The notes under the pieces: generated by a model
Seen by the model: only the letters and a program-made list of their open reading frames with translations
Told to the model about the DNA's origin: nothing
Databases searched by the model: none
Program-made: the position numbers and the translations under genes
Virus genome (UHGV): UHGV-0304018
DNA: 14,202 nt
Direction: 5' to 3' (one strand)
Origin: a virus
Part shown: in pieces, positions 1 through 13,137 of the stretch
How positions within the stretch are numbered: the stretch's first letter is position 1
Layout of the letters: each line of letters begins with the position of its first letter

Positions 1-46
1 GTAATTTCCACATTGACCTCCGGATCTGTTTCTCCCCCTATTTATA

Positions 47-75
47 ATCTTATCATACTGTCAACAGAATGTCAA
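47..75 (-). promoter_or_regulatory. Candidate leftward promoter inside the conserved 110-nt repeat block (copy A)
   Basis: On the minus strand: TTGACA (rc of 70..75), 17-nt spacer, TAAGAT (rc of 47..52). It points at a GTG start at position 11 whose ORF runs off the left window edge. Confidence 0.35.
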
Positions 76-382
76 TGAGAATTATTATCATTCAGGTGTG
101 CTATAGGTGCAAGCAAGTCCACAGCAAAGGGGTAAGCATTATTAATGGCCCCTACCGTGTCAAAACCAGAATCACTTATAGCATTTATGCAATAAGATTG
201 TCAATGGCCCACAATGGATGGAGAGCACTTTTTGTTAAAACTTTGGAGGGTGTTAAACTCAAACCTCATGAGAGGCCCTACAACGCGATTTAAGCATCAG
301 GTAATGCAATTCACTAGGGAGTATGGTTTATCTCGCTGTAGGCGCTAAAATCGCGCTTATTTTCGATTTATGAGTGTCATAT

Positions 383-404
383 TACGTGCATGCACACGCG
401 CGCG
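383..404. repeat. 22-nt strictly alternating purine-pyrimidine tract (tacgtgcatgcacacgcgcgcg) in repeat copy A
   Basis: Read directly. Copy B has an analogous 19-nt tract at the equivalent place with a different sequence. Confidence 0.8.
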
Positions 405-506
405 GAATCCCTCGCTTAAACGGTCCGGATTGGAAACAGAAGTCTCTTATCCGGACTCCACATTATAAAGCTCCGTGCTATAGCACTACGCTCCCCACAC
501 ACAATT

Positions 507-541
507 GGGTGACGTGTCATGTATGGAATACATTGTCACCC
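507..541. promoter_or_regulatory. Large imperfect palindrome GGGTGAC-N21-GTCACCC with nested ATGTAT/ATACAT arms; candidate operator or RNA hairpin (copy A)
   Basis: Arms are exact reverse complements; identical in both repeat copies and flanked by CACACA runs. Confidence 0.5.
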
Positions 542-606
542 CACACAGGCCGACGTAGTCGGTTTAGCTGTATAGCTAAAGTCACAGAGTGACCCACACA
601 CATATT

Positions 607-645
607 GCCTAAAGAGTCGCTAATGCTCTTTAGGCTTTCATTTGT
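607..645 (+). terminator. Rho-independent terminator, rightward (copy A)
   Basis: Perfect 10-bp stem gcctaaagag / ctctttaggc with a 9-nt loop, followed by tttcatttg. Confidence 0.6.
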
Positions 646-698
646 GGGTTAAGCTTTTCCCTTAGAAAACCTTCCCCACTCTCTGATCCCTCCCCATT

Positions 699-721
699 CC
701 CCCCTGGGGGGTTAGGGGGGG
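699..721. repeat. Homopolymer cluster C6-T-G6-TTA-G7
   Basis: Read directly: cccccctggggggttaggggggg, just left of the iteron array. Confidence 0.9.
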
Positions 722-763
722 ATCTATTGTGTGGTCTATTACTTTATCTATTAGTGTCAAATA

Positions 764-949
764 TTTTTACAGGTAGTAGTAAAAGATTTTGACAGGTAGT
801 AGTAAAAATATTTTACAGGTATGGGCCGTATTATTGGTGGGGTAGTAAAATATTTTGACAGGTTAGGGGCTGTGTATCATGGGTGCAATGACTGCAAAAC
901 AGGAGAGTATGACTGTATAAACACACAGGTGTGAAAATTCTTTACAGGT
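764..949 (+). repeat. Array of five iteron-like direct repeats, core TTTKACAGGT; candidate origin of replication or protein-binding array
   Basis: Cores at 765-774, 787-796, 811-820, 854-863 and 940-949; the first two units also share acaggtagtagtaaaa; spacing of the first three is 22-24 bp. No ORF on either strand. Confidence 0.6.
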
Positions 950-1141
950 TAGTGCGGTAATATTTACCGGGGTGTGGTGCCTGAGTATGACTGAAAGGGG
1001 TTGTAGGAAATCCCAACAGGTGGGGGAGTGATTGCATCTGATTTTTTACTCTGTATTAGCCGTCAATTGACCTATTTTGACTAGCAAACCTCTCTCCTCT
1101 CTCTTTGCTTTGATTTTCTCTCATGTGTGGGAAATATGCAG

Positions 1142-1167
1142 ATCAACACCCGTTGATTTTATCAACA
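1142..1167. promoter_or_regulatory. Overlapping palindromes ATCAA-N6-TTGAT-TTT-ATCAA including a DnaA-box-like TTATCAACA
   Basis: Read directly; TTATCAACA (1159..1167) is one mismatch from the TTATCCACA consensus. Confidence 0.3.
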
Positions 1168-1726
1168 GTTATGTTGACCGGGTGTCATAACTATGGCCCC
1201 TGGGGCAGTCCATCCTTCCCTCACACAGGACAATGAATACATAAAGAACATGAAAGACTGTTCACACCAACACGCCGATAAATTGCCTGAAGAGGCTTGC
1301 ATGGGGTTATTGTTGTGTGGGTAATGGTGATCATGCTAACAGATTATGTTAATCAGATGTAAATTCCGGTTTTGTGGTCTACAGAGAACAAACTATACTG
1401 GTTAAATGATCAGGGGAATGACTACAAAACAATCAAAAATGTGGGATATAGCCATCTATACGTCTAATGTGCTGTGTGGGGTGTTAGTGCATGCTTACAT
1501 GTAAGTCATTGATTTGAAGGGTTGGGAAAATTGCATTTAACATAATAGATCTTATCTACACTAATAAAGCGCACTACAAAATCTGATTTAAAAATCATGA
1601 TCAGTGGGCACAGAATTTACGTACAGCCACCTGAATAAATAATGTGCACAACATACAGCAAAGCTTAAGAATTAACATAATAGCAACGTGGTCGGCAGTG
1701 GTGTGATATTTGAGAATTGTTAGAAG

Positions 1727-1763
1727 AAAAAAGGGAGGTGGGGGAGCGCCTGCCTGGCACCTC
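1727..1763 (-). terminator. Possible weak leftward terminator in the gene-free region
   Basis: 6-bp stem GAGGTG / CACCTC with a 17-nt loop, followed on the minus strand by CC and T6. No matching promoter was found. Confidence 0.3.
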
Positions 1764-2302
1764 AGACGAACATCTGACGGGTATTAATACCGCTAATGGA
1801 TATTTCTGACACCCACACCCAAGACCGCTTTCAGCACACAGCCATACACCGCACAGGATGCAATTGTGATAACAAAAAATGGGGGTGTAATAGGGTAGGT
1901 CATCTTTCATCAAAATCACTTCTACGACGTTCCCAGAGTGATAACAAGAAAACAGGCCTCTAAGATTATCTGTGCCTCGTTTTTAGCTTTTTGTGTGGTT
2001 ACCAGGTGAATAGGAAATGTTAAAAACTGTTCATTTTATGCACAAACTAGTCAGGGTGATACTACAAATTGAGGTGTAAGAAATCCAGCTGCAGATAATC
2101 TTGCAGCCAGATTTTGCAGTTTTTGAGGGTATGTTAAATTTGACAAAAATAGAGAAAAGGCCAATTGAGCTAAGCTATTGATTTTATTAGTATTGCAAAA
2201 AAGGGTTACATCCTCTCTCTTACACTGTCAACAATGCCCAAAACCATTAAATCAATAAATAGGCATTAAATACCCATTAAATAGGGGTTAAATAGGGGAT
2301 AA

Positions 2303-2328
2303 ATAAAAAAGGGGCCGTGATGGCCCCC
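2303..2328 (-). terminator. Rho-independent terminator ending the leftward membrane-protein gene
   Basis: Perfect hairpin ggggcc-gtgat-ggcccc (2311..2327) followed on the minus strand by T6, 17 nt after the stop codon at 2345. Confidence 0.75.
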
Positions 2329-2344
2329 TGGTGGGTTGGTGTGG

Positions 2345-3055
2345 TTATTTCATAGGAGAGGTTTCTACGGCTTCACCGTACATCTCATTAAGCATCTTCA
2401 ATGCTTCCATATCAACATTCAGGAGTGTTCCCTCAGTGATCCAGGCGTTATTCTGCCATGCTTCGTGAACGAGTTCACCGTTATACCATCGAGCCGTTCG
2501 TGTAGTTTCTATGCTTACACCGTCCATGTGGCGCATCTGTAGCCAACGATCATTGCCTTTTACATCCTTGCACCATACCGTCAGAACATCTTTATTTTTC
2601 CCAGTAGGTGCCCCACTGTTAACCGCCACTTTAATCTGGTTGCAAGCACCTTTTTCTGCATGATTCCACAGCCAGGCGTGAATCTGGTATTTATCTGTGC
2701 ATCCTATATCTTTAGAGAGATCGCAATCTAGCACACCATAAATATATTTATATGCTTTTACCCTGTCCTCCCATGTAAGATCGGAGACGTTAACCACTTC
2801 TTCATGCTGTGAGTTCACCTCTTCCACATTTGCAGCTGTATTTCCTGTGGGAAGAGAGAAGTAGGCCCAGCCAATAAGCCCCGCGACTATAACCAGACTT
2901 GTTATGACTGCTCCAGGGTGCTCTTTATATTGTGCATGCAGCTTTTTAATATCTTTCCCTACACTCATCACTAGTAATAGAGGCAAAGCAATTACTAACA
3001 CCCATGGACCAAATACAATGCAAGCTAATAGTGTAACAATAATTCCCTTAAACAT
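2345..3055 (-). CDS. Membrane protein, 236 aa: two N-terminal TM helices plus a ~165-aa extracytoplasmic domain with four Cys; function unknown
   Basis: ORF track; hydrophobic segments at about aa 5-30 and 50-68; SD AAGGGG 7 nt before the ATG; own terminator. The superinfection-exclusion or defence role is inference only. Confidence 0.75.
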   Translation of the reverse strand: MFKGIIVTLLACIVFGPWVLVIALPLLLVMSVGKDIKKLHAQYKEHPGAVITSLVIVAGLIGWAYFSLPTGNTAANVEEVNSQHEEVVNVSDLTWEDRVKAYKYIYGVLDCDLSKDIGCTDKYQIHAWLWNHAEKGACNQIKVAVNSGAPTGKNKDVLTVWCKDVKGNDRWLQMRHMDGVSIETTRTARWYNGELVHEAWQNNAWITEGTLLNVDMEALKMLNEMYGEAVETSPMK

Positions 3056-3062
3056 AGTGGTA

Positions 3063-3083
3063 CCCCTTTGCGAGAAGTTGATT
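3063..3083 (-). promoter_or_regulatory. Duplicated leader element AAAUCAACUUCUCGCAAA (minus-strand sense) immediately 5' of the ribosome-binding site of 2345..3055
   Basis: 18 nt identical to the element at 3583..3603; a 12-nt core gcgagaagttga recurs at 8086..8097. Confidence 0.5.
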
Positions 3084-3112
3084 TAAGTTAATAACCTGGT
3101 GGACTGTTCACA

Positions 3113-3373
3113 CTATTTATTCTTCTTAAATCTCCCATCCTCCTTTCTTTCGATATTGTGGTAGTCGGCATAGGCTTTTAGCCTTCTGTGCACGGTGGCG
3201 ATCCCCACACCGAAGGTTTTAGCGATGACCTGTCGTGGCGTTCCCTCCTCAACCATCTTGTACATCTGTTCCGCTACATCCATTTGTGCGGCTATCTCCA
3301 TTTGCTTTGCCTTAGCTTTAATTTCAGCTATCAGCTCTTCCCTCAGTCTCTTAATATCTTTAGTTCCCGTCAT
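3113..3373 (-). CDS. Small DNA-binding protein, 86 aa: N-terminal charged helix plus a C-terminal HTH resembling the DNA-binding domain of Hin/Gin-type serine recombinases; no catalytic domain
   Basis: ORF track; GTPRQVIAKTFGVGIATVHRRLKAY resembles the Hin C-terminal HTH as recalled from memory, not searched; start codon overlaps the stop of an upstream small ORF (ATGA). Confidence 0.7.
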   Translation of the reverse strand: MTGTKDIKRLREELIAEIKAKAKQMEIAAQMDVAEQMYKMVEEGTPRQVIAKTFGVGIATVHRRLKAYADYHNIERKEDGRFKKNK

Positions 3374-3450
3374 AAACTCCGCTCAATGATGATTAATACA
3401 AAATCTAAGACTGCCAGACCTATTAAAAATACTTTGCCTCCTTTGCCCAT
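3370..3450 (-). CDS. Possible 26-aa hydrophobic peptide (MGKGGKVFLIGLAVLDFVLIIIERSL), translationally coupled to the HTH gene
   Basis: Hand translation; below the ORF-track length cut-off; single predicted TM segment; stop overlaps the downstream ATG. Confidence 0.25.
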   Translation of the reverse strand: MGKGGKVFLIGLAVLDFVLIIIERSL

Positions 3451-3451
3451 C

Positions 3452-3574
3452 TCACACCTCCACACACAGAGCTAACATCAGGGCTAAAACTCCAACCACC
3501 TCAATTGCCTTAACAATGTGTGGGTGATGAAACCTGGCCTTTTGCCATGCGCTGGCACTGTTCTTGATACCCAT
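3452..3574 (-). CDS. Possible 40-aa peptide with hydrophobic C-terminus (MGIKNSASAWQKARFHHPHIVKAIEVVGVLALMLALCVEV)
   Basis: Hand translation; SD AAGGTGA 5 nt before the ATG; the duplicated leader element lies immediately upstream. Confidence 0.3.
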   Translation of the reverse strand: MGIKNSASAWQKARFHHPHIVKAIEVVGVLALMLALCVEV

Positions 3575-3582
3575 AACTATCA

Positions 3583-3603
3583 CCTTTTGCGAGAAGTTGA
3601 TTT
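3583..3603 (-). promoter_or_regulatory. Second copy of the duplicated leader element, immediately 5' of the ribosome-binding site of the 40-aa ORF
   Basis: Read directly; identical 18-nt core to 3063..3083. Confidence 0.5.
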
Positions 3604-3638
3604 GTTTGCTCGGTTGGGTGCTTTCACTGGCTATGCCA

Positions 3639-3655
3639 GGTGACTTTCAGTCACC
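3639..3655. promoter_or_regulatory. Palindrome GGTGAC-tttca-GTCACC; same half-site as the repeat palindromes
   Basis: Read directly; sits in the divergent control region between the leftward module and the rightward capsid promoter. Confidence 0.4.
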
Positions 3656-3744
3656 CCTTTGGGTGTCTCTATCAATGCTACCCTTCCTTGATTCGAACTA
3701 TAACCGGGTAAATCCCCGGAAAACATTGATATTGATCAAAAGAT

Positions 3745-3775
3745 ATCTATCACGAATGAAAAAGTTATGATAGAT
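3745..3775. promoter_or_regulatory. Inverted repeat ATCTATCA-N15-TGATAGAT; candidate operator
   Basis: Read directly; about 90 bp upstream of the consensus capsid promoter; a further ttgatagagg half-site follows near 3800. Confidence 0.4.
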
Positions 3776-3861
3776 GCGATGAGATGACGTATTGATGGGA
3801 TTGATAGAGGTCTGAAAATACCGTTACTACGCTAATTATTAGAATTTATATAATAAGGGGG

Positions 3862-3890
3862 TTGACAATTTGAGAGAATACTGATATAAT
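3862..3890 (+). promoter_or_regulatory. Perfect consensus sigma70 promoter: TTGACA, 17-nt spacer, TATAAT
   Basis: Read directly: -35 at 3862..3867, -10 at 3885..3890, with an AT-rich upstream stretch. Confidence 0.8.
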
Positions 3891-3896
3891 ATACAT

Positions 3897-4370
3897 ATAC
3901 CGTAAATCAATGGTGAAAGTGATTTGCCGTATTTTCCTCCAAAGTAAAGGCGACCAGGTAGCGGTGCCGCCTTATAAATAACACTACCCTGATCATCGTT
4001 GAGTGGTCGATTAATTCTCCTATTGGGCTAGTTATCCACACAGTTTTCTTTTGCGGGTTTTCTGTGTGGGTAGCTATCCCGAAAGGTATTTCCCCGCTGA
4101 TGTGACCGCAGCCTGAACTGATCCGGGGGAGTGCCTTTCGTGATAGTGCTCTCTAGTAACCGTAACCCATACTGTGAACTATCATCCGACTGTTGTCGGT
4201 TTCCCCATGTGGAATAGCCCCCGCTTGGCTACGGTGCGGGGCTATCTCCCTCTCCTTGTATCAATTTCCCTTTAGATTTCCGGCATAACTTTTCGGCCCG
4301 AGCCTGTCGTGGTTTGAGAGGTTATACCGGAACTCTTTGAGGGGAGTTAATTTAAATCGCAGGTGATCAA
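3897..4370 (+). other. ~470-nt untranslated, hairpin-rich leader between the consensus promoter and the first capsid gene; candidate cis-regulatory RNA
   Basis: No plausible ORF; several strong stems, e.g. ccacacag-N18-ctgtgtgg (4036..4069), ccgac-tgtt-gtcgg (4187..4200), tagcccccgc-N11-gcggggcta, aaggcg-N16-cgcctt. Folds were judged by eye. Confidence 0.5.
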
Positions 4371-4706
4371 ATGAGAGATATGACTATCCGCACACGCGGA
4401 CACATCATTTCATACGCCGCAGATGAGCAATTTTCTATTCGCGACGTTGAAATTAAAAACAAAGTTAAGGCTGAGATTCCGGCTGGCACTGTTGTTGTGG
4501 TGACTGAGGAAGGCGAGGTTGAAACATTCGTTAAAGCAACGCACACCGGTAAAACTCCGCTGCTGGTTGTAGAACGTGCTGAGGTTGGTGACGCTTTTAT
4601 CGTTGTTGCGAACAAAGGTTGCTACATCAATCCGGCCTACGTGGATAAAGAAGGCTTAGCCGCTGTTATTGCTGCCAGCAATGGCGATTTGCGTGTTGCA
4701 CAATAA
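4371..4706 (+). CDS. Putative head decoration protein, 111 aa
   Basis: ORF track; size and position immediately upstream of the major capsid gene, as in lambda D-E; AGGTGA site before the ATG; codon usage typical of a highly expressed gene. Family assignment is by context only. Confidence 0.8.
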   Translation: MRDMTIRTRGHIISYAADEQFSIRDVEIKNKVKAEIPAGTVVVVTEEGEVETFVKATHTGKTPLLVVERAEVGDAFIVVANKGCYINPAYVDKEGLAAVIAASNGDLRVAQ

Positions 4707-4711
4707 GGAGG

Positions 4712-5764
4712 TTGAAGATGGCTAAGAAAGAATTTGAAGTTCGCGATCTGTGTGGTCTGATTAAAGACATCCCGCTGGATAACCAGATTATTTCAGCAAT
4801 GGATATCTTCAACACTACAGCCCTGTGCAATACCTTTAAATTTGAATATGACAAAGTTCGCCAGGTGAAACAAACCGCTTTCGGTCAGTATCCGCGCTAC
4901 GGTGAACAGATGGCTACCATTACCGCAGATGAGCGTGAAACGGGCACGGGTGATATGGCATTCACTGCCGCATCAAGTGCTATTTATCCTTCTGACTGGC
5001 AAGGTATCCGTGTTCCGGGCAAAGATTCCGAAGAGAATTTAGAGTCTGTAACCGCTCGTCGTGTTATTCAACTGGGTGAAGGACTACGCGCGACCCATGA
5101 AGAAGCACGCCAGCTTGCTCTCTTTGAGAACAAAATTATCCTTACCAAGGGTAAAGAACTGAATGTGTGCGAACTGCTGGGCGCACAGCAAACCACTTCA
5201 GAAGTGGATCTAGCTCAAGATATCCTTAAACAGCTGCAGGACCTGGTTGCACTGAGCAAGGTTAAACAGCGTGGTGTTGTTCGCGCTCTGCGTGGTTTCA
5301 CCCTGTTCTGCCGTGCTGAGCTCTTTGCTGCAATTCAGACTGATGAACTGCTCCGTAAAGTGCTGTTGTTCGGCAATCAGAATATTACCGACAAAGGTCT
5401 GATGTTCCCTGAGGATATTCTGCCGGGCTTCCCGACCTTCCGCATTCCGGGCTTAGCTCTGCGTGTGGTGCAAATGGATAGTCTGCCAGAGAATACTGCT
5501 TATCTGGTCCCACAGTTCCAGCCGCATGCGTTAGGCGATATGGTGGGCGTTTATACTCAATTTTTCGGCCCTTGCGCTCGCAACCTGAAGCTTGCAAACG
5601 GCGCTGCACGTGAAGCTTTCATGTATATGGAAGAGTCCAGAGGTAAACGAGAAATCTTCATTGAATCCTCTTATGCTTTCATGAACATGATGCCTGAGGT
5701 TGTGGTTAAAGTGAGTGTTAGTAACTCCGCCGCCGCTGCTCTGGCAAAAGCCAAGGCTAAATAA
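4712..5764 (+). CDS. Putative major capsid protein, 350 aa
   Basis: ORF track; strong AGGAGG site 6 nt before the ATG; size and position after the decoration-like gene; followed by a terminator. Fold not verified. Confidence 0.85.
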   Translation: MKMAKKEFEVRDLCGLIKDIPLDNQIISAMDIFNTTALCNTFKFEYDKVRQVKQTAFGQYPRYGEQMATITADERETGTGDMAFTAASSAIYPSDWQGIRVPGKDSEENLESVTARRVIQLGEGLRATHEEARQLALFENKIILTKGKELNVCELLGAQQTTSEVDLAQDILKQLQDLVALSKVKQRGVVRALRGFTLFCRAELFAAIQTDELLRKVLLFGNQNITDKGLMFPEDILPGFPTFRIPGLALRVVQMDSLPENTAYLVPQFQPHALGDMVGVYTQFFGPCARNLKLANGAAREAFMYMEESRGKREIFIESSYAFMNMMPEVVVKVSVSNSAAAALAKAKAK

Positions 5765-5795
5765 GGTCCTTCTTCGAAGGCCAAATAAAAGCAAA

Positions 5796-5846
5796 GGGAA
5801 GAGGTGAGAGATCGGGGATAGGTCTTTCCCTCTTCCCTTTTTTATT
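5796..5846 (+). terminator. Rho-independent terminator after the capsid gene
   Basis: 9-bp stem gggaagagg / cctcttccc with a 24-nt loop, followed by ttttttatt. Confidence 0.55.
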
Positions 5847-5877
5847 ATCCCCGTCTTAAGTTTTTGAGGTGTCTTTT

Positions 5878-6129
5878 ATGAAAATTGTTTTATACGGCGA
5901 CCGTGACGACGTGCCTTTTGATATTATCCATATCGATGACGAGGATCTGCCGGAATTCCTGCGTATCTCCACATTTGCCGCCTGCTATGACGTTAGCCGC
6001 CAGGCTATGCATAAATACCGTGAATATAATAAATGCACCTGGGCCGAGACTTTCGAACATTTTATTGCACGCAAACAGGCACAGGACCGCAAAAAAGCCC
6101 TGAATGCCCATAATCGTTTTGCAAAATAA
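5878..6129 (+). CDS. Hypothetical small protein, 83 aa, with a possible HTH (STFAACYDVSRQAMHKY)
   Basis: ORF track ORF 5869..6129, start re-placed at the ATG at 5878 with GAGG 8 nt upstream. Confidence 0.65.
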   Translation: MKIVLYGDRDDVPFDIIHIDDEDLPEFLRISTFAACYDVSRQAMHKYREYNKCTWAETFEHFIARKQAQDRKKALNAHNRFAK

Positions 6130-6234
6130 CGCTCTCGGGAAGAGCTATAAGCGATTCTAACGAATAACTGCCCTGTATTTTCTGCAGATTTTAAGCAGGG
6201 CAACGAAAAGATTCATTTTTGAGGCATGTTCAAT

Positions 6235-7002
6235 ATGGCTAATGATGCTCTAACAGCTGCAAAACAAGCTGAGTCGAGATCTCCTGCATTCACTGTTATG
6301 TGTGGGGGATATTCACAAAACAAAAATATAATGGATGGCTTCAACTATACCGATAATGTGGCTATCTTCTTTGACTCTATCTCTGATGTCAGCTATTCGT
6401 TCCCTGTTGAGAAATCGAGCTATGCGGTCGAGGATGGCACCACCATGTCAGACCATGCCGTCATTAAAGATAAATCTGTCAGCTTTACGGGTATTGTTAC
6501 CTCTTCCCCTCATATCATCCGGAAAGAGAACTACATCGACCGGAACACTGATCCAGATAATCCCCGTGAATCTATGCGCCCTGCTGCCGCTGTTCAGGCA
6601 CTTATGGAAATGAGAGACAAGCGCCAGCTGGTTAGCCTGGTTAGTGAAGATGCCGGACTTCTTGAGAACTTCATCATGACGAAATGTGAAGTTAAGCGTA
6701 GCTCTTCCTCTGGCGACTGCATCACTATTGATTGCACTTTTGAAGAATTCCGCACCTTCAAGGTGAAGATGGTCGAAAATGCCGGAGTTTTCACTAACAG
6801 TAAGAAGGTGAATAAAACACAGCAAAAGGGTGCTGTTAACAGTGCTGAGAAGAATAGCAACGTCGGGAACTCAACCAACACCCCATCGGCTAAGCCTAAA
6901 AATTTACAAACTTTGCTCGATGAAAATGATGGGGCTATGAGCACAAAAGACATTTATGATCAGCAAAGGCAAGCCAAATTTGCCAAGGATGCTACAAAAT
7001 GA
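6235..7002 (+). CDS. Hypothetical phage protein, 255 aa, probably virion-associated; function unknown
   Basis: ORF track ORF 6226..7002, start re-placed at the ATG at 6235 (GAGG 10 nt upstream); stop overlaps the next gene's start (ATGA). Confidence 0.75.
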   Translation: MANDALTAAKQAESRSPAFTVMCGGYSQNKNIMDGFNYTDNVAIFFDSISDVSYSFPVEKSSYAVEDGTTMSDHAVIKDKSVSFTGIVTSSPHIIRKENYIDRNTDPDNPRESMRPAAAVQALMEMRDKRQLVSLVSEDAGLLENFIMTKCEVKRSSSSGDCITIDCTFEEFRTFKVKMVENAGVFTNSKKVNKTQQKGAVNSAEKNSNVGNSTNTPSAKPKNLQTLLDENDGAMSTKDIYDQQRQAKFAKDATK

Positions 7003-7457
7003 AAGTCCGGTGCACCATAGACAAGCGCATGATGGATAAGCTGCATAAAGAGCTCTCACAGATGGAAGGTGTAGCGGTTGGCTGGGATGACGGGAAACAC
7101 TATAGCGGCCTGAATTACGCCACACTGGCGGCTATCCACTCTGAGGGGTGGGGTGATTTGCCTAAGCGCTCATTTATGGAGTCTGCCCACGCTGCAATGC
7201 TCTATGAGAGCCTGAGACACACAAAAGCCCTGATTAATGCAATCGTAAAGGGTGGGAGCTCTGAGGCCGTCAGAAAGCGAATTGGCAAGCGATACGCCGA
7301 CATTTTGGAGACTATCCTGATTAGTGGGCAATTCAGCAATAACAAGGTTTCCCCACAATGGGCAAGCTATAAAGGCTTCAATGATGCAATGCGCCACTAT
7401 GATGATTTGATCGGTGCAATCAAATACTGGGTAGACATAGACAAGAAAGGGGCCTGA
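6999..7457 (+). CDS. Putative head-tail joining or tail-completion protein, 152 aa (HK97 gp10-like)
   Basis: ORF track; motif HSEGWGDLPKRSFMES matches the P-x-R-x-F signature I associate with that family; size ~150 aa. Recalled from memory, not searched. Confidence 0.75.
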   Translation: MKVRCTIDKRMMDKLHKELSQMEGVAVGWDDGKHYSGLNYATLAAIHSEGWGDLPKRSFMESAHAAMLYESLRHTKALINAIVKGGSSEAVRKRIGKRYADILETILISGQFSNNKVSPQWASYKGFNDAMRHYDDLIGAIKYWVDIDKKGA

Positions 7458-7470
7458 TAGCCCCTCTCTC
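7449..7470. terminator. Possible bidirectional terminator between convergent genes
   Basis: Hairpin ggggc-ctgata-gcccc overlapping the stop of 6999..7457, with T-rich sequence on both strands. Confidence 0.4.
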
Positions 7471-7475
7471 TGAGA

Positions 7476-7625
7476 TTAGATAAACTGGGATAATTCCCGC
7501 ACAAGCTTTATCTCCTGCCGTTCCTTCTGCTTCTCTTCTAACCATTTCCGGCCTTCTTCAGTCTTGAGAAACTTGCGAGCGTGAATCTTGCGGTTATTTC
7601 GCTTAATGGCATTGGCATTCTTCAT
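7476..7625 (-). CDS. Small very basic protein, 49 aa (MKNANAIKRNNRKIHARKFLKTEEGRKWLEEKQKERQEIKLVRELSQFI)
   Basis: Hand translation; below the ORF-track cut-off; SD AAGGGG before the ATG; candidate promoter just upstream; its start context is nearly identical to that of the membrane-protein gene. Confidence 0.5.
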   Translation of the reverse strand: MKNANAIKRNNRKIHARKFLKTEEGRKWLEEKQKERQEIKLVRELSQFI

Positions 7626-7659
7626 AGTGTCACCCCTTCTTATGACCTGCTACGCCTAC

Positions 7660-7688
7660 ATTATAGCCAAAATCCTGAATTCAGACAA
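7660..7688 (-). promoter_or_regulatory. Candidate leftward promoter: TTGTCT, 17-nt spacer, TATAAT
   Basis: -10 is rc of 7660..7665 and -35 is rc of 7683..7688; about 27 nt upstream of the start of the 49-aa ORF. Confidence 0.5.
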
Positions 7689-8085
7689 TAGAACTCTTTT
7701 TGATGCCGTGTTGGTGGTAAGGAGAAACACTAGCATCATTTAGGGGTTTTCAGGTTTTCATGTAGATCAGCTTTATCAGGTACCTGCTTATATTCCGGTG
7801 CGGTGAAACCGTGTGGGCATCTCTTAGTTTTGGCTTATCACTTATTGCCGGGTAAGAGAGCAGAACCACCAACGTTTGCCTGTTTATCACCTTGGTTAGG
7901 GTGAGGCCGCATCAAGCCCAGTGCTCTACAAGATACTCCAGATCATAGACGCTTATTTTCTCTTAGAGGTCGCGTTAACCTCTGGGATCTGTTTCCACTG
8001 ATGAATATAAAACAAACGGTATGAATGATCAAACGTGAACAGAAAGAGAGTTGACTTTCTCTCTGCAGATGATCACACTTGCCAG

Positions 8086-8097
8086 GCGAGAAGTTGA
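8086..8097. repeat. Third copy of the 12-nt core gcgagaagttga
   Basis: Read directly; lies 3' of the tape-measure gene, overlapping a possible rightward terminator hairpin (agcccc-N19-ggggct followed by ttttatt, 8097..8130). Confidence 0.5.
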
Positions 8098-8142
8098 GCC
8101 CCAAAGGATGACAAATCCCGAGGGGCTTTTATTATCAACCAG

Positions 8143-10284
8143 TTAGAAAAGCTGATTAGCTTCCTGTGTGGCTTTCCAATCCAGCTGATCGCTGACTTCC
8201 TTCTGGATCACCCTGGCAATTCCCCCCTCATCAATGGTTATCTCCCACTTGCCGGAGATCTCACCCTGCGGAACTACACTGATTTGAGTCGGCTGATAGC
8301 CTCCATTCTGAATAGCAATACCACCCGTTGGTGTTGGTCTGGTAATGTAGCGTCCTGCGTCCAGACGATAATCAAGGCCAAGGAAGCTAGAAGCACTATT
8401 AACCATACTGGTTAACCATTCAGGATGTTTAGCTCCTTCCTGCCGCTGATTATCAGGATTCTGCCAGTAGGAATCTAAGCTATTTGCAATGTCAAATCCT
8501 GTCAAAACAATCCCTGCCGGACCTGCAAATCTTCCTCCAAGTCTGCCTGCTTTCCCGATAAAGCCGCCTCTACCTGGTCTGCCTTTGCCTGCTGTGCCTC
8601 CAGTGCTGATATCACCAACACCGACTAAAGCACTAAGCGCCGCTTTAAGTTTCCACAGCATGGAAATAAGGCCGCCAACCATGCCAGCAATGCTTGTTGC
8701 AACCTTCAGGCCTAACAGGGCGGTCACAACCTGGCCAATCTTCTCGCCTGCATCCTGTGCGGTCCAGCCTAACGTCTCACCAATGCCTTTGGCGATCTTC
8801 TTAGTCCACCACCAAGCCCAGTTGACCCAAAAATAAATTTCATGCATTGCCTCGCCTAACATAACTCCGAGAGATTTGGCATCTTCACCTGAGCTACTGA
8901 AAATTGAGGATAAATCTTCAAAGATATAAATAAGGGATTCTGACAGGGTAATGACGCCATCCGCAGGATCCACAACACCCATAAAGGATTGCTTTAGTTT
9001 AAAAAACTGGTTGCTCATTCTCTGCAGTGCCACTTCAGGCTGTTGCATAGATTTAGCAAAAGCGTCAGTTTCTTTTGCAGCACCCCAGATTTTCACTAGA
9101 GAGGGAAGAAGCTTGTCCAGGGTGATTTTGCCATCTGCCATGGCTTTATCGAATTCCTGGGCACTCTTGATGATTCCGGCATCAATAGCGGCCTGTTGAA
9201 AATCCTGTTGTGAGCCTGCAAAGGCTTCTGACAGCTGGCCACGCAGCTCTTCCGCAGCTACTCTTCCTTTTGAAGCCATTTGTTGGACCGCAACAAGCGC
9301 CCTGTTCTGTTGCTCGCCAGTAGCACCCACTGAGCGGCCTTTAATCGCCATAGCCTCAAAAAGAGCCTGCTTATCAGATTCCTTCATGGTGGGAGTAGCG
9401 GCAGCAAAACGCATATAGCCACCCTCCATCTCACGCTGATCCATCCCGTAGGTGTTGGCTGTGTTCTCGATAAAAGCCATCTGCTGGTCAGTCTTGGCTT
9501 TATCATCCTTGTTCTGAGCAAGCAAACCATAATAGGCTGAGTTATGGTCAGATTGAGCGCTCATAGCACCACTAACAGCTCTCTGAATACCCCATCCTGC
9601 AGCGGTCAGGCCAATGGCTATCTTGCCTAAAGCACTGTTAAGCTTGCCGATATTGTTATGCACCTTGCTCGCACCTGCTGCCAGTTTATCTAGCTTGCTT
9701 TGAAAGGTGGTGGCATCTCTAGAGGCCATCTTCATTTCAGCTCTGAGTCGGGCCATTTTCTGATTATAGGTCTGCAGGTTAATAGCCCCTTTAGCATAAT
9801 CAGCATTAACTCTCTGGATTCTGCTTTGGAACTGAGCAACCAGGGATCCATCAAACATGCTGCTGATTCGTGCACTGTTGGCCCCTACACGTGCTTTTCT
9901 GTGCTGAACATCTCCAACACTACGATCTAACAGTTTTTGTTGTCTGGCGGCTTCTCTGGCTTGTTGTTGGTAGAACTTGCGCATAGAGTTAAGTTCGGCA
10001 TTGTTGCCCCCGGTCAGACGGCTGACAGCCTGAGCACGTTGTTTCTTCTGTGCTTCCTGTTGTTTCCTCTGAGCTCTGGCTATCTGCTCTTCCACCTTAG
10101 CGCGTGTTCTTTGTGTTCTGAGCACAGCCTGATTAGATTTAAAATCAGCTTTAGCTATATCGTCGGTAGCTTTCTTCCAGGATTTTTTATAATCCTCAAG
10201 CCGTTTAACTTCTTTTCGCCAGGAGGATTTATCAGAGTCCCAGTAAATAACGTTTGTTAGTCTGGCTACTTCCTTCATTGCCAT
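8143..10284 (-). CDS. Tail tape measure protein, 713 aa
   Basis: ORF track; charged coiled-coil-like N-terminal third, central region with the conserved core recalled for tape-measure proteins (GRVAAEELRGQLSEAF), and hydrophobic and Gly-rich segments near the C-terminus; SD GAGG before the ATG. Confidence 0.85.
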   Translation of the reverse strand: MAMKEVARLTNVIYWDSDKSSWRKEVKRLEDYKKSWKKATDDIAKADFKSNQAVLRTQRTRAKVEEQIARAQRKQQEAQKKQRAQAVSRLTGGNNAELNSMRKFYQQQAREAARQQKLLDRSVGDVQHRKARVGANSARISSMFDGSLVAQFQSRIQRVNADYAKGAINLQTYNQKMARLRAEMKMASRDATTFQSKLDKLAAGASKVHNNIGKLNSALGKIAIGLTAAGWGIQRAVSGAMSAQSDHNSAYYGLLAQNKDDKAKTDQQMAFIENTANTYGMDQREMEGGYMRFAAATPTMKESDKQALFEAMAIKGRSVGATGEQQNRALVAVQQMASKGRVAAEELRGQLSEAFAGSQQDFQQAAIDAGIIKSAQEFDKAMADGKITLDKLLPSLVKIWGAAKETDAFAKSMQQPEVALQRMSNQFFKLKQSFMGVVDPADGVITLSESLIYIFEDLSSIFSSSGEDAKSLGVMLGEAMHEIYFWVNWAWWWTKKIAKGIGETLGWTAQDAGEKIGQVVTALLGLKVATSIAGMVGGLISMLWKLKAALSALVGVGDISTGGTAGKGRPGRGGFIGKAGRLGGRFAGPAGIVLTGFDIANSLDSYWQNPDNQRQEGAKHPEWLTSMVNSASSFLGLDYRLDAGRYITRPTPTGGIAIQNGGYQPTQISVVPQGEISGKWEITIDEGGIARVIQKEVSDQLDWKATQEANQLF

Positions 10285-10285
10285 T

Positions 10286-10522
10286 TTATACCTCGCCCTG
10301 TCTTAAAGATTTTGATAATGAAATAGCCCTTTTCAGGGCCTCTTTATCAATATTATATTTCTCCGCCAGCTCTTCGATTGAGAGGCCTTCTGTGTGGGAG
10401 CTACTTTTAATAATGGTGGACCCCTCTTTCGCTGCCTCTGGCAGGTGACCTATTGTCACCCCTTCGGGCGTGTCTTCGGAGTCCTTAACCAGTTTTTGAT
10501 AAATCTTTTCGTAGATATTCAT
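10286..10522 (-). CDS. Hypothetical protein, 78 aa, immediately upstream of the tape-measure gene
   Basis: ORF track; SD AAGG 8 nt before the ATG; stop is 1 nt from the tape-measure ATG. A tail-assembly-chaperone role is inferred from position only. Confidence 0.7.
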   Translation of the reverse strand: MNIYEKIYQKLVKDSEDTPEGVTIGHLPEAAKEGSTIIKSSSHTEGLSIEELAEKYNIDKEALKRAISLSKSLRQGEV

Positions 10523-10523
10523 A

Positions 10524-10913
10524 TCATTTGCCTTTGCGTCTTAGTGGACACTTATCGCCAATAGTCCACACAAAAATATAATGGCGCTTGCTTTCAGCTT
10601 TAGGATTTAATAATTCTTTATGCAAATATCCGGCTGACAGCATTTTATCGACCAGGTTTTTCACTCTTTGCCCTTCCTCAAATGTTTGTGCTTTGAAATA
10701 GAGATTTGGAAAGTTTTGGCCTGTATACTTTCCATCTTCATTTAAGCGGGTGCATACCCAACGACATAAATCATCGTCGTTAAGATCACTAACGTGTGGT
10801 TTATCATCGCTGCTAAATAACGCCTGTTTAAAATGGGAGTAACTAAACTCCCCTTCTTCCAGGAAATCACCCTCTTCGAATTCAACTATCATTTCTTCAA
10901 TATTCATAGGCAT
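10524..10913 (-). CDS. Hypothetical protein, 129 aa, acidic N-terminus; possible tail assembly chaperone by position
   Basis: ORF track; compact gene spacing. Confidence 0.75.
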   Translation of the reverse strand: MPMNIEEMIVEFEEGDFLEEGEFSYSHFKQALFSSDDKPHVSDLNDDDLCRWVCTRLNEDGKYTGQNFPNLYFKAQTFEEGQRVKNLVDKMLSAGYLHKELLNPKAESKRHYIFVWTIGDKCPLRRKGK

Positions 10914-10967
10914 ATCCTCTCATTGATGCACCCCCCAAAAAATGGGGAGTGCTTATTTATCAATAGC

Positions 10968-11411
10968 TTAATCAAGATTAACCAGTTTGAGAGGTTTGAC
11001 AGCTTGGAGCATGGTCTGCATCATTCCTACGCTTATTTCAAAGAGATCTGCCATGTTCTGAAGGCTTGCCCCTTCTGCCTCAATCATTGATTTGGATAAG
11101 GCAGCAATCACAAAGCCATCCTGGGCGCTGTTCCACATGCTGATAAGAGGATCATCACCGTGTTGGCGCATAAGGTCCTGAATCATCCACAGCCTACATG
11201 CCATAACCACCAAATCGACATAGAAAACATCACCATTAGCGGACTTGCATTCAGCAAAAGCGTGGTGTCTGTGTTTTAAGAAGTGCTCTTTGTCACGGGT
11301 AAATGCCAGGGTGTTGGTAAACTTGCCATCTAAAAGATCCTGGCGAACTTTTGAATCTTCAGCGTCGAAAGCTTTGATTACCTGGGATAATAATTTAGCG
11401 ATTTGAGACAT
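10968..11411 (-). CDS. Hypothetical protein, 147 aa
   Basis: ORF track; AGGA 7 nt before the ATG. Confidence 0.75.
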   Translation of the reverse strand: MSQIAKLLSQVIKAFDAEDSKVRQDLLDGKFTNTLAFTRDKEHFLKHRHHAFAECKSANGDVFYVDLVVMACRLWMIQDLMRQHGDDPLISMWNSAQDGFVIAALSKSMIEAEGASLQNMADLFEISVGMMQTMLQAVKPLKLVNLD

Positions 11412-11484
11412 TTGGAATTCCTTAAATTAGAGCCCCGGAAGGGGTTAAAGTGAGTCGAAAATAAATAAATCGAAGAGATAAAAC

Positions 11485-11973
11485 TTAGGCTTTCTGGGCC
11501 ATTGCTTTCTGGACTTTATTTCTATGGCGGCGGTAGATGAATATAAATTCGCGATAAGCACGACTACCGGGCTTAGGCAAACGTTGATTAAGCTCCTTAC
11601 GTGGCAGGATTTCACTCAACAAGCCCCAGATATGAAAGCAGGTTACTTTTAATTCTTTTGCTATCTCTTCAATATTCATCCCACAATTCCACATTAAAAG
11701 AGATTTGCGGCGGCGATCTTCGAAGACATTTCTATCTCTATCTATTTCGTTGTAGACACTGAGGGGAACTCGACACCGTGGATTCCAGGACTCATTATAT
11801 AGTTTTTGGACTTTCTCAAGTTTAACGCCTGTATATTCCGCCACGAATTCAGGGGTAAAGCCCTCGACTAATAAGTGTTTAGCCTGTCGTGTTGGTTGAT
11901 CATCACTGGGGAGATATTTCTGCAGTGCTACCAGTTTTTCAAATTGGGAATCAGAAAGATCAGATTTGAACAT
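11485..11973 (-). CDS. DNA-binding protein, 162 aa, with a sigma70 region-4-like HTH; candidate late-gene activator or small-terminase-like protein
   Basis: ORF track; RRKSLLMWNCGMNIEEIAKELKVT follows the region-4 pattern (R-x-hydrophobic-L-x4-G-x3-EEIA-x2-L-x-V); GGAGA 7 nt before the ATG. Confidence 0.75.
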   Translation of the reverse strand: MFKSDLSDSQFEKLVALQKYLPSDDQPTRQAKHLLVEGFTPEFVAEYTGVKLEKVQKLYNESWNPRCRVPLSVYNEIDRDRNVFEDRRRKSLLMWNCGMNIEEIAKELKVTCFHIWGLLSEILPRKELNQRLPKPGSRAYREFIFIYRRHRNKVQKAMAQKA

Positions 11974-13121: not shown

Positions 13122-13137
13122 CATAATTCCCCCATAA

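What the first reader, a model, noticed from the sequence alone, without database searches (positions are those of the whole stretch)
2345..3574. Leftward module: Cys-containing membrane protein, recombinase-type HTH protein and small hydrophobic peptides
A 236-aa protein with two TM helices and a ~165-aa extracytoplasmic domain carrying four Cys is encoded next to a stand-alone Hin/Gin-like HTH protein, with two possible coupled hydrophobic peptides upstream and its own terminator. This is the sort of cargo that superinfection-exclusion, abortive-infection or toxin-immunity modules occupy in prophages and satellites. I do not recognise it as a named system.
Basis: inference. Interest (0 to 1): 0.6.

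Follow-up and report, generated by a model that had tools for sequence, protein, structure and literature searches.

The report
Regulator operon with swappable envelope-protein gene
The flagged region is a real four-gene operon on a small E. coli plasmid that carries phage capsid and tail genes: a conserved membrane peptide and a DNA-binding regulator are followed by a slot where unrelated envelope proteins are exchanged between plasmids, most likely as an accessory phage-exclusion function, though no function could be shown.

Summary
On the minus strand lie pep1 (40 aa, 3574-3452), pep2 (26 aa, 3450-3370), an 86-aa Hin-type HTH protein (3373-3113), a 236-aa protein (3055-2345) and a terminator (2329-2309).

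The module has two parts with different histories. Pep1 and the HTH are core genes of a narrow family of about 13-14 kb E. coli/Shigella plasmids. These plasmids have a Rep gene, iterons, and homologues of rV5-like phage capsid, tape-measure, tail-tube-initiator and tail-completion genes. Pep2 is often frameshifted and is absent in one lineage.

The 236-aa gene sits in a slot that is replaced from ATG to stop. Three protein families occupy it:
- A: two TM helices plus a periplasmic Cys domain.
- B: a polytopic membrane protein.
- C: a signal peptide plus a distant relative of the A domain.

Slot alleles reassort freely against every other plasmid gene. Homologues elsewhere are stand-alone. Pfam, PHROGs, PADLOC, NCBIfam, PDB and fold searches gave no match.

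Best reading (confidence 0.4): a regulator operon carrying an exchangeable, autonomous envelope effector, probably for phage exclusion. This resembles lambda cI-rexAB or the cargo hotspots of P4 and PICI satellites. Function is inferred, not shown. A toxin-immunity pair and coupling to the plasmid's own tape-measure protein were tested and disfavoured.

The parts
2309..2329 (-). Rho-independent terminator of the leftward operon (AGGGGGCCATCACGGCCCCTT plus a T-run)
   Evidence: 8 pairs, 6 G-C. It is conserved immediately after slot alleles A, B and C in all loci.
2345..3055 (-). Slot gene, allele type A: a 236-aa inner-membrane protein with two N-terminal TM helices and a periplasmic alpha/beta domain of about 168 aa. 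Cys at 111, 119, 138 and 162; conserved core C138...W-C162-K-D-x-x-G-N-D-R-W.
   Evidence: dN/dS 0.23-0.37. Nucleotide homology with B and C plasmids breaks at the ATG and just after the stop.
3064..3084 (-). Translation-initiation-region motif AAATCAACTTCTCGCAAAGGG, copy 2, directly upstream of the slot gene. It also forms the conserved 5' flank of the cassette swap.
   Evidence: (family D3). A related version is present in the diverged lineage L013.
3113..3373 (-). 86-aa stand-alone Hin/resolvase-type HTH protein (N-terminal helical region plus C-terminal HTH_7). Core gene; putative regulator of the divergent promoter region.
   Evidence: At least 94% identical across the main lineage and 58% identical (alignment A6) in lineage L013. 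The family is restricted to these plasmids.
3370..3450 (-). Pep2, a 26-aa hydrophobic ORF whose stop overlaps the HTH start (ATGA). Doubtful gene, or a dispensable coupling or upstream ORF.
   Evidence: It is frameshifted or truncated in L009/L041, L019, L040, L023 and L017/21/22/25, and absent in L013-15.
3452..3574 (-). Pep1, a conserved 40-aa tail-anchored membrane peptide. Basic, His-rich N-terminus (IKNSAxxWxKxx[FY]HHPH) and C-terminal TM ending in CVE[VF].
   Evidence: dN/dS 0.29 at dS 1.3 against L013. Called as a gene in L019, L046 and L048.
3583..3603 (-). Translation-initiation-region motif AAATCAACTTCTCGCAAAAGG, copy 1, directly upstream of pep1
   Evidence: It is 100% identical in lineage L013, although the pep1 coding sequence there is only 64% identical.
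3604..3880 (-). Putative 5' leader and operator region. Contents: hairpin CCGGGG-ATTTA-CCCGG (3704-3719); inverted repeats TTGATCAATATCAA (3726-3739) and TCTATCA-N15-TGATAGA (3746-3774); a cluster of CTATCA/TGATAG hexamers; a 48-nt hairpin-rich insertion (about 3621-3668) present only in some plasmids.
   Evidence: 5 of the 13 hexamers in the window lie within 3577-3802. The RNA fold z-score is -2.9.
3862..3917 (.). Divergent promoter region. A perfect sigma-70 promoter on the + strand (TTGACA-17-TATAAT with TG, 3862-3890) points at the capsid operon. It overlaps the only predicted leftward promoter (TTCACC-18-TATATT, 3917-3888).
   Evidence: The -35 and -10 elements of the + promoter are conserved in L013. 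The leftward promoter assignment is an inference.

Best explanation
The region is the leftward control-and-accessory operon of a small iteron plasmid that carries rV5-like phage structural genes.

Proposed mechanism:
1. Transcription starts in the divergent promoter region (about 3880-3920) and runs through a structured leader of about 300 nt.
2. It then crosses pep1 (40-aa tail-anchored membrane peptide), the optional pep2 upstream ORF, the 86-aa Hin-type HTH protein and one exchangeable gene, and stops at the terminator at 2329-2309.
3. The HTH protein is the element's own regulator. It most likely binds the CTATCA/TGATAG repeats and inverted repeats that lie between its operon and the consensus capsid promoter. 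This part is inferred.
4. The last gene is an autonomous accessory cassette. In this window it encodes a protein held in the inner membrane by an N-terminal TM hairpin, with a disulfide-stabilised alpha/beta domain in the periplasm.
5. I propose that it acts at the envelope to exclude competing phages, by blocking genome entry or an envelope step. It would be expressed constitutively together with the regulator, in the way lambda rexAB is expressed with cI.

What is shown: gene structure, conservation, predicted topology, allele replacement, independence from the other genes, and absence of known homologues.

What is inferred: the promoter, the HTH targets and the exclusion function.
For: Operon anatomy and coupling.

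Core versus variable parts:
- The HTH is at least 94% identical, and pep1 is always intact, across about 45 loci.
- The slot carries families A (236-239 aa), A' (225-228 aa), a signal-type A (186 aa), B (173 and 179 aa) and C (195 aa).
- The swap is gene-precise: nucleotide homology stops at the ATG and resumes a few to about 25 bases after the stop.
- The slot has a separate history. Against L001, dS is 0.60 for the slot and 0.15 for the HTH. Against L012, nucleotide identity is 62% for the slot and 94% for the HTH.

Envelope targeting:
- Charge distribution around the TM helices and the Cys pattern.
- The same domain occurs behind a signal-like N-terminus in P0003, and a distant relative occurs behind a Sec-type signal peptide in type C.
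- The A-C link is supported by hhalign (probability 74%, E=2.9e-5) and by blastp (2e-4 and 4.9e-5).

Autonomy:
- The adjusted Rand index of slot type against clusters of TMP, MCP, Dit, TC, Rep, HTH and the other genes is at most 0.17.
- The homologue P0006 is a lone gene that follows a terminator-like hairpin and has its own consensus promoter. P0008 sits among small unrelated ORFs.

Regulator role:
- HTH_7 and Hin DNA-binding-domain similarity.
- Position beside a perfect sigma-70 capsid promoter.
- Clustered CTATCA/TGATAG sites and inverted repeats, partly conserved in a lineage that is 64% identical in pep1 and 66% in the HTH gene.

Precedents, from papers:
- Inner-membrane exclusion proteins of prophages, including HK97 gp15 and P22 SieA.
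Against: - No phenotype or homology ties any slot allele to phage exclusion. PADLOC and PHROGs give nothing.
- The slot gene has no separate promoter and no GC deviation (43.2% against 43.9%), so it is not a textbook moron.
- If the plasmid is a satellite, excluding its own helper would be counter-productive.
- The leftward promoter is a weak consensus match and HTH binding is untested.
- Overall dN/dS of 0.23-0.37 shows purifying selection, not an obvious arms-race signature. Diversity comes from exchange of old alleles.
Confidence: 0.4

Rival explanations
1. Helper manipulation or lysis timing. The slot proteins, and perhaps pep1, act during infection by the helper phage on its holin, antiholin or other envelope machinery. 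They would change lysis timing or favour release of plasmid-containing particles, as T4 RI (a periplasmic antiholin) and PLE LidI do. The comparison with RI and LidI is from my own knowledge.
For: - All alleles are membrane or periplasmic proteins.
- The element carries homologues of rV5-like structural genes and probably interacts with such virulent phages.
- Pep1 is a conserved single-TM peptide.
Against: - The plasmid has no holin, endolysin or spanin.
- Three unrelated protein families occupy one slot, with no co-variation with any other gene. This fits an optional accessory function better than a step of the element's own life cycle.
- Homologues occur as lone genes outside this plasmid family.
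Confidence: 0.15
2. A host-fitness cargo gene unrelated to phage. The periplasmic domain would provide an envelope trait such as stress tolerance, protection from a bacteriocin or enzyme, or a colonisation factor.
For: - Moron-type genes commonly encode such traits (PMC3594210).
- Carrier strains come from human, bovine, pig and chicken sources.
Against: - No similarity to any known inhibitor or virulence family.
- The family is almost confined to this phage-related plasmid.
- Allele replacement among unrelated envelope proteins is more typical of phage-facing loci.
Confidence: 0.12
3. A function in the plasmid's own transfer. The slot protein would be needed for entry or establishment of plasmid DNA delivered by hijacked particles, or would act as entry exclusion against the same element. 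In either case it would work with the plasmid's tape-measure protein.
For: - It has inner-membrane and periplasmic location.
- The plasmid tape-measure protein has a hypervariable segment at about residues 500-650.
- HK97 gp15 exclusion depends on features of the incoming phage tail region (PMC3594210).
Against: Tested directly. The tape-measure variant does not track slot type: the window (type A) is 99% identical to L030 (type C), and L027 (type A) is 98% identical to L029 (type B). The adjusted Rand index is at most 0.16.
Confidence: 0.07
4. A toxin-immunity or abortive-infection module. The small hydrophobic peptide or peptides would be membrane toxins, and the 236-aa membrane protein (or the HTH) the cognate immunity or antitoxin.
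For: - Pep1 and pep2 are short hydrophobic peptides in the same operon.
- Such peptides are often type I-like toxins (my own knowledge).
Against: - A near-invariant pep1 is paired with three unrelated slot families, one of which is a soluble periplasmic protein.
- Pep2 is frequently inactivated with no change in its partners.
- No antisense RNA or known toxin family was found.
- Slot homologues exist without pep1.
Confidence: 0.06
5. A site-specific recombination system. The Hin-like protein would drive inversion or cassette exchange of the downstream gene, as in a shufflon or invertase switch.
For: - The HTH is of the Hin/resolvase type.
- RefSeq attaches a 'DNA recombination' GO term.
- The cassette is replaced precisely.
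Against: - At 86 aa the protein has no serine-recombinase catalytic domain.
- No inverted repeats flank the cassette.
- All loci have the same orientation.
- Exchange is explained by homologous recombination in the conserved flanks, namely the initiation-region motif and the terminator.
Confidence: 0.02

Closest known systems
Lambda cI-rexA-rexB type immunity operons (a regulator co-transcribed with an exclusion function). This comparison rests on established knowledge.
   Same: - A DNA-binding regulator next to a divergent promoter switch is co-transcribed with a downstream accessory gene.
- The unit ends at its own terminator.
- The accessory part is dispensable for the element itself.
   Different: - There is no sequence relationship.
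- The regulator is a Hin-type HTH_7 protein, not a cI-type repressor.
- The downstream gene is a periplasm-facing protein, not RexAB.
- Neither the regulator role nor the exclusion role was tested here.
Inner-membrane superinfection-exclusion proteins of prophages: HK97 gp15 and P22 SieA (PMC3594210, PMC10883804)
   Same: - These are small inner-membrane proteins encoded by mobile elements.
[quoted passage not shown]
- Type B (173 aa, polytopic) resembles SieA in size and TM count.
   Different: - No detectable homology. PHROGs, which is built from phage proteins, gives no hit.
- The conserved SieA motif FxRYPxEAxxFNK is absent.
- Types A and C have a large periplasmic domain.
- The carrier is a plasmid, not a prophage.
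Variable cargo hotspots of phage satellites (P4-like elements, PICIs). This comparison rests on my own knowledge of that literature; the papers were not retrieved here.
   Same: - A fixed position flanked by conserved core genes carries alternative, unrelated accessory genes in otherwise near-identical elements.
- The alleles reassort freely.
   Different: - The cargo matches no known defence system (PADLOC gives nothing).
- It is a single small envelope protein.
- It is embedded in the regulator's operon rather than being a separate unit.
- The element is an autonomous plasmid whose status as a satellite is itself unproven.
Hin/Gin serine DNA invertases
   Same: The C-terminal HTH matches Pfam HTH_7 and the Hin DNA-binding domain 1hcr. 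Nearby repeats contain TATCA/TGATA. From memory, that resembles the hix half-site core.
   Different: Only the DNA-binding domain is present. There is no catalytic domain, no invertible segment and no flanking inverted repeats, so it is not a recombinase.

Membership tests
Serine recombinase / DNA invertase (Hin, Gin) | N-terminal resolvase catalytic domain with the active-site serine | tested here: not met
   The protein is 86 aa. Pfam reports only HTH-type domains at residues 30-69.
Serine recombinase / DNA invertase (Hin, Gin) | C-terminal HTH_7 DNA-binding domain | tested here: met
   HTH_7 scores 27.5 bits against a cut-off of 23.8. The Hin DNA-binding domain 1hcr matches at E=3.5e-4.
Serine recombinase / DNA invertase (Hin, Gin) | Invertible segment bounded by inverted recombination sites | tested here: not met
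   No inverted repeats flank the slot gene. All 45 or so loci have the same orientation.
Moron (independent promoter-gene-terminator insertion) | Own terminator | tested here: met
   Terminator at 2329-2309, conserved in all loci.
Moron (independent promoter-gene-terminator insertion) | Own promoter | tested here: not met
   No promoter-like site lies in the 57-nt HTH-slot spacer. The distant homologue P0006 does have TTGACA-17-TATAAT, preceded by a terminator-like hairpin.
Moron (independent promoter-gene-terminator insertion) | Base composition differing from the surrounding genes | tested here: not met
   The slot gene is 43.2% GC and the plasmid is 43.9% GC.
Known superinfection-exclusion protein families (SieA, SieB, Imm, Sp, Cor, Llp, Sim, gp15/YebO, Ltp) | Sequence homology to a characterised member | tested here: not met
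   No PHROG, Pfam or NCBIfam hit for types A, B or C. tblastn against 50,697 phage records found only chance hits.
Known superinfection-exclusion protein families (SieA, SieB, Imm, Sp, Cor, Llp, Sim, gp15/YebO, Ltp) | Envelope location | tested here: met
   Prediction only: TM segments, the positive-inside rule and signal peptides in sister alleles.
Known superinfection-exclusion protein families (SieA, SieB, Imm, Sp, Cor, Llp, Sim, gp15/YebO, Ltp) | Blocks infection after adsorption or at the receptor | not testable with these tools
   This needs phage challenge experiments.
Satellite or prophage defence hotspot | Alternative unrelated genes at one position between conserved flanks | tested here: met
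   Families A, B and C and their subtypes share flanks that are identical up to the ATG and the terminator.
Satellite or prophage defence hotspot | Cargo recognisable as a defence system | tested here: not met
   PADLOC gives no family for A, B, C, pep1 or pep2.
Toxin-immunity / type I toxin module | Cognate pairing (co-variation) of toxin and immunity genes | tested here: not met
   A near-invariant pep1 sits with three unrelated slot families. The adjusted Rand index of slot type against the other genes is at most 0.17.
Toxin-immunity / type I toxin module | Toxicity of the peptide; antisense RNA control | not tested
   No Rfam family was found in the window. Toxicity needs an experiment.

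The most novel reading that the evidence does not exclude
The window is a member of an undescribed class of autonomous plasmid satellites, or of decoy-type defence plasmids, directed at virulent rV5-like (Vequintavirinae) myophages. The flagged operon is its switch: a membrane peptide plus a Hin-type HTH control a consensus capsid promoter. Fused to that switch is a slot for a new family of periplasm-facing anti-phage or helper-manipulating effectors, built around a disulfide-bonded C...WCKDxxGNDRW hairpin.
Probability: 0.3. Interest if true: 0.75.

Novelty: new variant of a known kind. Interest (0 to 1): 0.5.

Why it matters
If the slot proteins are envelope-level exclusion factors, they would form three new, very narrow protein families. 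Type A and C relatives number about 20 clusters at 90% identity among 5.8 billion.

They come with a natural allele series in an otherwise constant genetic background. That is convenient material for finding what each allele blocks.

The operon is also the obvious place to look for the signal that switches on capsid and tail genes on a 13.5-kb plasmid. That bears on whether tailed-phage satellites can live as plasmids. One recent review counts only one phage satellite shown to be a plasmid, an inovirus satellite (PMC12282955).

If no phenotype appears, the region is simply the regulatory region of a cryptic plasmid with one variable gene of unknown function.

Tried and rejected
1. Homology of the 236-aa protein.
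- Pfam, PHROGs, PADLOC and NCBIfam gave nothing.
- A word-indexed search of 5.8 billion proteins found 5 clusters, all on plasmids of this family (4 on free contigs of about 13-14 kb, and 1 frameshifted copy inside a 94.6-kb contig).
- An exhaustive HMM search of 1.84 billion representatives added only P0006, P0008 and a weak hit to an Ig-like repeat protein, P0007 (E=3.7e-5). I regard the last as a shared beta-hairpin pattern, not homology.

2. Structure.
- The full-length AlphaFold2 model was unusable (pLDDT 51.5).
- The soluble-domain model was moderate (pLDDT 65.7, pTM 0.68).
- The afdb50 library was not available.
- No fold assignment is claimed.

3. Slot type coupled to the plasmid's tape-measure variant: rejected.

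4. Toxin-immunity pairing: disfavoured.

5. Type A and type B share their N-terminal TM hairpin (the GPW motif). The similarity is only weak: blastp E=0.086 and 0.012. Left open.

6. A third copy of the initiation-region motif at 4333-4353 on the opposite strand, as possible antisense pairing with the capsid operon. It is 76% identical and is not conserved in L013. Treated as chance. The 3-mismatch copy at 8083-8097 and two IMG/VR 18-mer hits are also treated as chance.

7. Relatives of the HTH in GTDB species representatives, IMG/VR and phage genomes: none.

8. RNA families and tRNAs in the window: none.

9. Literature on this plasmid family: none found by accession numbers, plasmid names or satellite-plasmid terms.
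Full report
**What is there**

On the minus strand the window carries a compact transcription unit:
- pep1: ATG 3574 to stop 3452, 40 aa.
- pep2: ATG 3450 to stop 3370, 26 aa. It starts one base after the pep1 stop, and its TGA overlaps the next ATG.
- An 86-aa gene, 3373-3113.
- A 57-nt spacer.
- A 236-aa gene, 3055-2345.
- A strong intrinsic terminator at 2329-2309, with 8 pairs, 6 of them G-C, followed by a T-run.

- The 236-aa protein has two hydrophobic segments, with peaks at residues 5-23 and 50-68.
- The loop between them is basic and the stretch after the second is acidic, so the roughly 168-aa C-terminal domain should be periplasmic.
- That domain holds Cys 111, 119, 138 and 162.
- The 86-aa protein passes Pfam's HTH_7 threshold (27.5 bits against 23.8).
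- It also matches the Hin DNA-binding domain 1hcr at E=3.5e-4.
- It has no recombinase catalytic domain.

**Where it sits**

The window is not a prophage.
- It is 92-94% identical, over the 66-77% of its length that aligns, to circular, 'non-mobilizable' E. coli plasmids of 13.2-13.7 kb. One further record is a 39.6-kb trimer of the same unit.
- No phage record matches at the nucleotide level.
- The plasmid has 23-nt-spaced iterons at 756-964.
- It has a Rep protein of the phage-O/DnaD-like type at 12258-13181.
- It has a major capsid protein, a Dit-like 'tail tube initiator', a tail-completion protein and a tape-measure protein.

These four structural genes are homologous to genes of rV5-like virulent myophages. 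Against Vequintavirus MaxTheCat the values are Dit 46%, tail completion 42%, tape measure 25% and the capsid C-terminal half 27.5%. The base composition is similar.

I found no paper that describes this plasmid family. One review counts only one phage satellite shown to be a plasmid, an inovirus satellite (PMC12282955). This context is the most striking thing in the window, but it is not the finding I was given, so I list it under things noticed in passing.

**Two parts with different histories**

I compared about 45 related loci from RefSeq, PLSDB and public assemblies.

The HTH protein is core.
- It is at least 94% identical in the main lineage and 58% identical (alignment A6) in a diverged lineage, L013-15.
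- The family occurs nowhere else among 5.8 billion proteins. The commonest sequence is indexed in 228 blocks of the assembly collection, mostly on 10-20 kb contigs.
- It has no relatives in one-genome-per-species GTDB, in IMG/VR or in phage genomes.

Pep1 is core too.
- It is intact at 40 aa in every locus that carries this region.
- In the diverged lineage it reads MCIKNSAGTWTKFKYHHPHMALMTELLGVVAIMMIMCVEF.
- There dN/dS is 0.29 at dS 1.3, so it is a protein-coding gene.

Pep2 is not secure.
- It is missing in L013-15.
- It is frameshifted at T-runs in at least four independent sequence variants.
- One lineage has a 28-aa version together with an extra 35-aa acidic ORF.
- I treat pep2 as a dispensable coupling or upstream ORF.

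**The variable slot**

Nucleotide homology between plasmids stops at the ATG of the 236-aa gene. It resumes a few to about 25 bases after the stop, at the terminator. Three protein families occupy this position:
- A: two TM helices plus the Cys domain, 236-239 aa. Subtypes are A' at 225-228 aa (about 50% identical) and a 186-aa form in which the TM hairpin is replaced by a signal-like N-terminus.
- B: a polytopic membrane protein with a Gly-rich basic tail, 173 aa. Subtype B' is 179 aa and 69% identical.
- C: a Sec-type signal peptide plus a soluble domain, 195 aa.

Families A and C share a core, C...x(about 20)...[WF]-C-K-D-x-x-x-N-[DE]-R-[WF].
- The two Cys that correspond to C138 and C162 are invariant.
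- The support for an A-C link is moderate. hhalign gives probability 74% and E=2.9e-5. Pairwise blastp gives 2e-4 and 4.9e-5.
- Family B is unrelated, apart from a weak and unproven resemblance in the first TM helix.

The slot gene has its own history.
- Against p7_14_47A-2 (L001), dS is 0.60 for the slot gene and 0.15 for the adjacent HTH gene.
- Against L012, nucleotide identity is 62% for the slot and 94% for the HTH.
- dN/dS stays at 0.23-0.37. These are old alleles being exchanged, not one gene evolving fast.

**Is the slot protein tied to anything else on the plasmid?**

I first suspected a link to the tape-measure protein. It has a hypervariable segment at about residues 500-650, and known inner-membrane exclusion proteins act on incoming tails (PMC3594210, PMC10883804).

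With 23 full-length plasmids the idea fails.
- The window (type A) has a tape measure 99% identical to that of a type C plasmid.
- Another type A plasmid is 98% identical to a type B plasmid.
- The adjusted Rand index between slot type and sequence clusters of each of ten other genes is at most 0.17.

Outside the family, the only detectable homologues are two.
- P0006 is a lone gene that follows a terminator-like hairpin and has its own consensus promoter.
- P0008 sits among small unrelated ORFs.

The slot protein therefore works on its own. This argues against a toxin-immunity pair with pep1 and against a role matched to the plasmid's own tail.

**What the protein is**

Nothing known.
- There are no hits in Pfam, PHROGs, PADLOC, NCBIfam or PDB sequences, and no hit by tblastn against 50,697 phage records.
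- The AlphaFold2 model of residues 90-236, built from a 14-sequence alignment, is of moderate quality (pLDDT 65.7, pTM 0.68). It shows a helix packed on four to five antiparallel strands, with further helices.
- I make no fold assignment.

**The regulatory side**

Between the operon and the capsid operon lies a region of about 790 nt.
- It holds a perfect sigma-70 promoter on the + strand (TTGACA-17-TATAAT with an upstream TG) at 3862-3890. It points at the capsid genes.
- This promoter overlaps the only predicted leftward promoter, at 3917-3888.

Comparison with the diverged lineage shows conserved islands in otherwise divergent DNA:
- the capsid promoter;
- a hairpin at 3704-3719, with a conserved stem and a variable loop;
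- the inverted repeats TCTATCA-N15-TGATAGA (3746-3774) and TTGATCAATATCAA (3726-3739);
- a 30-nt block, GACAAATCAACTTCTCGCAAAAGGTGATAGT, just before pep1. It is 100% identical, although the pep1 coding sequence is only 64% identical.

A near copy of that block, AAATCAACTTCTCGCAAAGGG, precedes the slot gene in every plasmid. It is therefore a shared translation-initiation or regulatory element, and it is also the upstream homology arm for cassette exchange.

CTATCA/TGATAG hexamers are clustered here: 5 of the 13 in the window lie within 3577-3802. From memory, Hin recognises a TTATCA-type half-site. This makes these repeats plausible targets for the Hin-like HTH, but that is an inference.

**Most likely mechanism**

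- The operon is the plasmid's control region with an accessory gene attached.
- The HTH protein, perhaps together with the membrane peptide pep1, sets the state of the divergent promoters.
- The last gene is an exchangeable, self-sufficient envelope effector, expressed with the regulator and stopped by its own terminator.
- Its most probable role is exclusion of competing phages at the envelope. The analogies are lambda cI-rexAB, HK97 gp15, P22 SieA and satellite cargo hotspots.
- I put this at 0.4.

Rivals:
- A lysis-timing or helper-manipulation factor: 0.15.
- A host-fitness cargo gene unrelated to phage: 0.12.
- A role in the plasmid's own entry or entry exclusion: 0.07, weakened.
- A toxin-immunity module: 0.06.
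- A recombination switch: 0.02, since there is no catalytic domain.
- The remainder is 'something else'.

**Novelty and score**

The kind of arrangement, a regulator operon with a variable exclusion-type cargo gene on a phage-related mobile element, is known. The proteins, the Hin-type stand-alone regulator with a conserved membrane peptide, the embedding of the slot inside the regulator's operon, and the plasmid carrier are new variants.

The module alone is moderately interesting. I give it 0.5, mainly because it is the likely switch region of an apparently undescribed plasmid family carrying rV5-like capsid and tail genes.

Noticed in passing
window 1-14202 (whole window): The window is a member of a family of about 13.2-14.4 kb circular E. 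coli/Shigella plasmids. They carry a Rep gene, iterons and homologues of four structural genes of rV5-like (Vequintavirinae) virulent myophages. Identities to phage MaxTheCat are: major capsid 27.5% (C-terminal half), tape measure 25%, tail tube initiator/Dit 46%, tail completion 42%. There is no portal, terminase, sheath, tube or baseplate gene. It is a candidate plasmid-borne satellite or decoy-type defence element. I found no literature on it.
   Followed up: partly
window 756-964: Five to six iterons, GT[AC]AAA[AT]ATTTT[TG]ACAGGT, at 23-nt spacing. This is probably the replication origin served by the 307-aa Rep-like protein at 12258-13181. Rep is very variable between plasmids, down to 21% identity.
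   Followed up: partly
window 2256-2305: A tandem array of about 4.5 copies of an 11-bp unit (TTAAATAGGGG / TAAATAGGCAT) lies immediately downstream of the operon terminator. It is conserved in the diverged lineage L013, so it is likely a protein-binding array (partition, packaging or origin-related).
   Followed up: partly
window 13400-14202 plus 1-2300: About 3.1 kb (22% of the plasmid) has no conserved ORF and is about 92% conserved between plasmids. There are no Rfam or tRNA hits. Apart from the iterons its function is unknown (packaging site? non-coding RNAs?).
   Followed up: no
window 13626-14202 versus 1-671: This is a diverged tandem duplication (95-100% identity in blocks) of a non-coding segment of about 600 bp that is single-copy in related plasmids. 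It accounts for the window being about 0.6 kb longer than its relatives. It may be real or an assembly chimera of two co-resident variants.
   Followed up: partly
window 8337-8787 (tape-measure residues about 500-650): This is a hypervariable segment of the tape-measure protein. Mean pairwise identity falls to 37-64% there, against about 90% elsewhere. There are at least four allele groups, and they reassort independently of the slot gene and of Rep.
   Followed up: yes
window 3862-3890 (+): A perfect consensus sigma-70 promoter with an extended -10 (TTGACA-17-TG-TATAAT) faces the capsid operon. A promoter this strong on a plasmid implies tight repression in the resting state.
   Followed up: partly
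window 3937-3996: A non-coding island, ATGATCAGGGTAGTGTTATTTATAAGGCGGCACCGCTACCTGGTCGCC on the minus strand, is strongly conserved in lineage L013 although the flanks have diverged. It contains a GGCG...CGCC hairpin. Its function is unknown.
   Followed up: no
window about 3621-3668; L001 7026-7131 (HTH-slot spacer): Hairpin-rich insertions of about 48-49 nt, each with three small stem-loops, are present in some plasmids and absent in others at intergenic positions. They look like small mobile or repeat-type elements.
   Followed up: no
L046 2424-2531; L048 2111-2218: In one sub-lineage an extra 35-aa acidic helical ORF (MSQAEMIIKAEELLERLQKAMDDAWNLIEELHEED) lies between pep1 and pep2. The small-ORF region of the operon is therefore itself variable.
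   Followed up: no
L003/L004 (NZ_CP043822.1, 39.6 kb); L051 (JAQRGU010000003.1, 94.6-kb contig): The plasmid also occurs as a head-to-tail trimer. In addition, a frameshift-ridden copy flanked by IS91-family and IS3-type transposase genes lies inside a larger contig.
   Followed up: no
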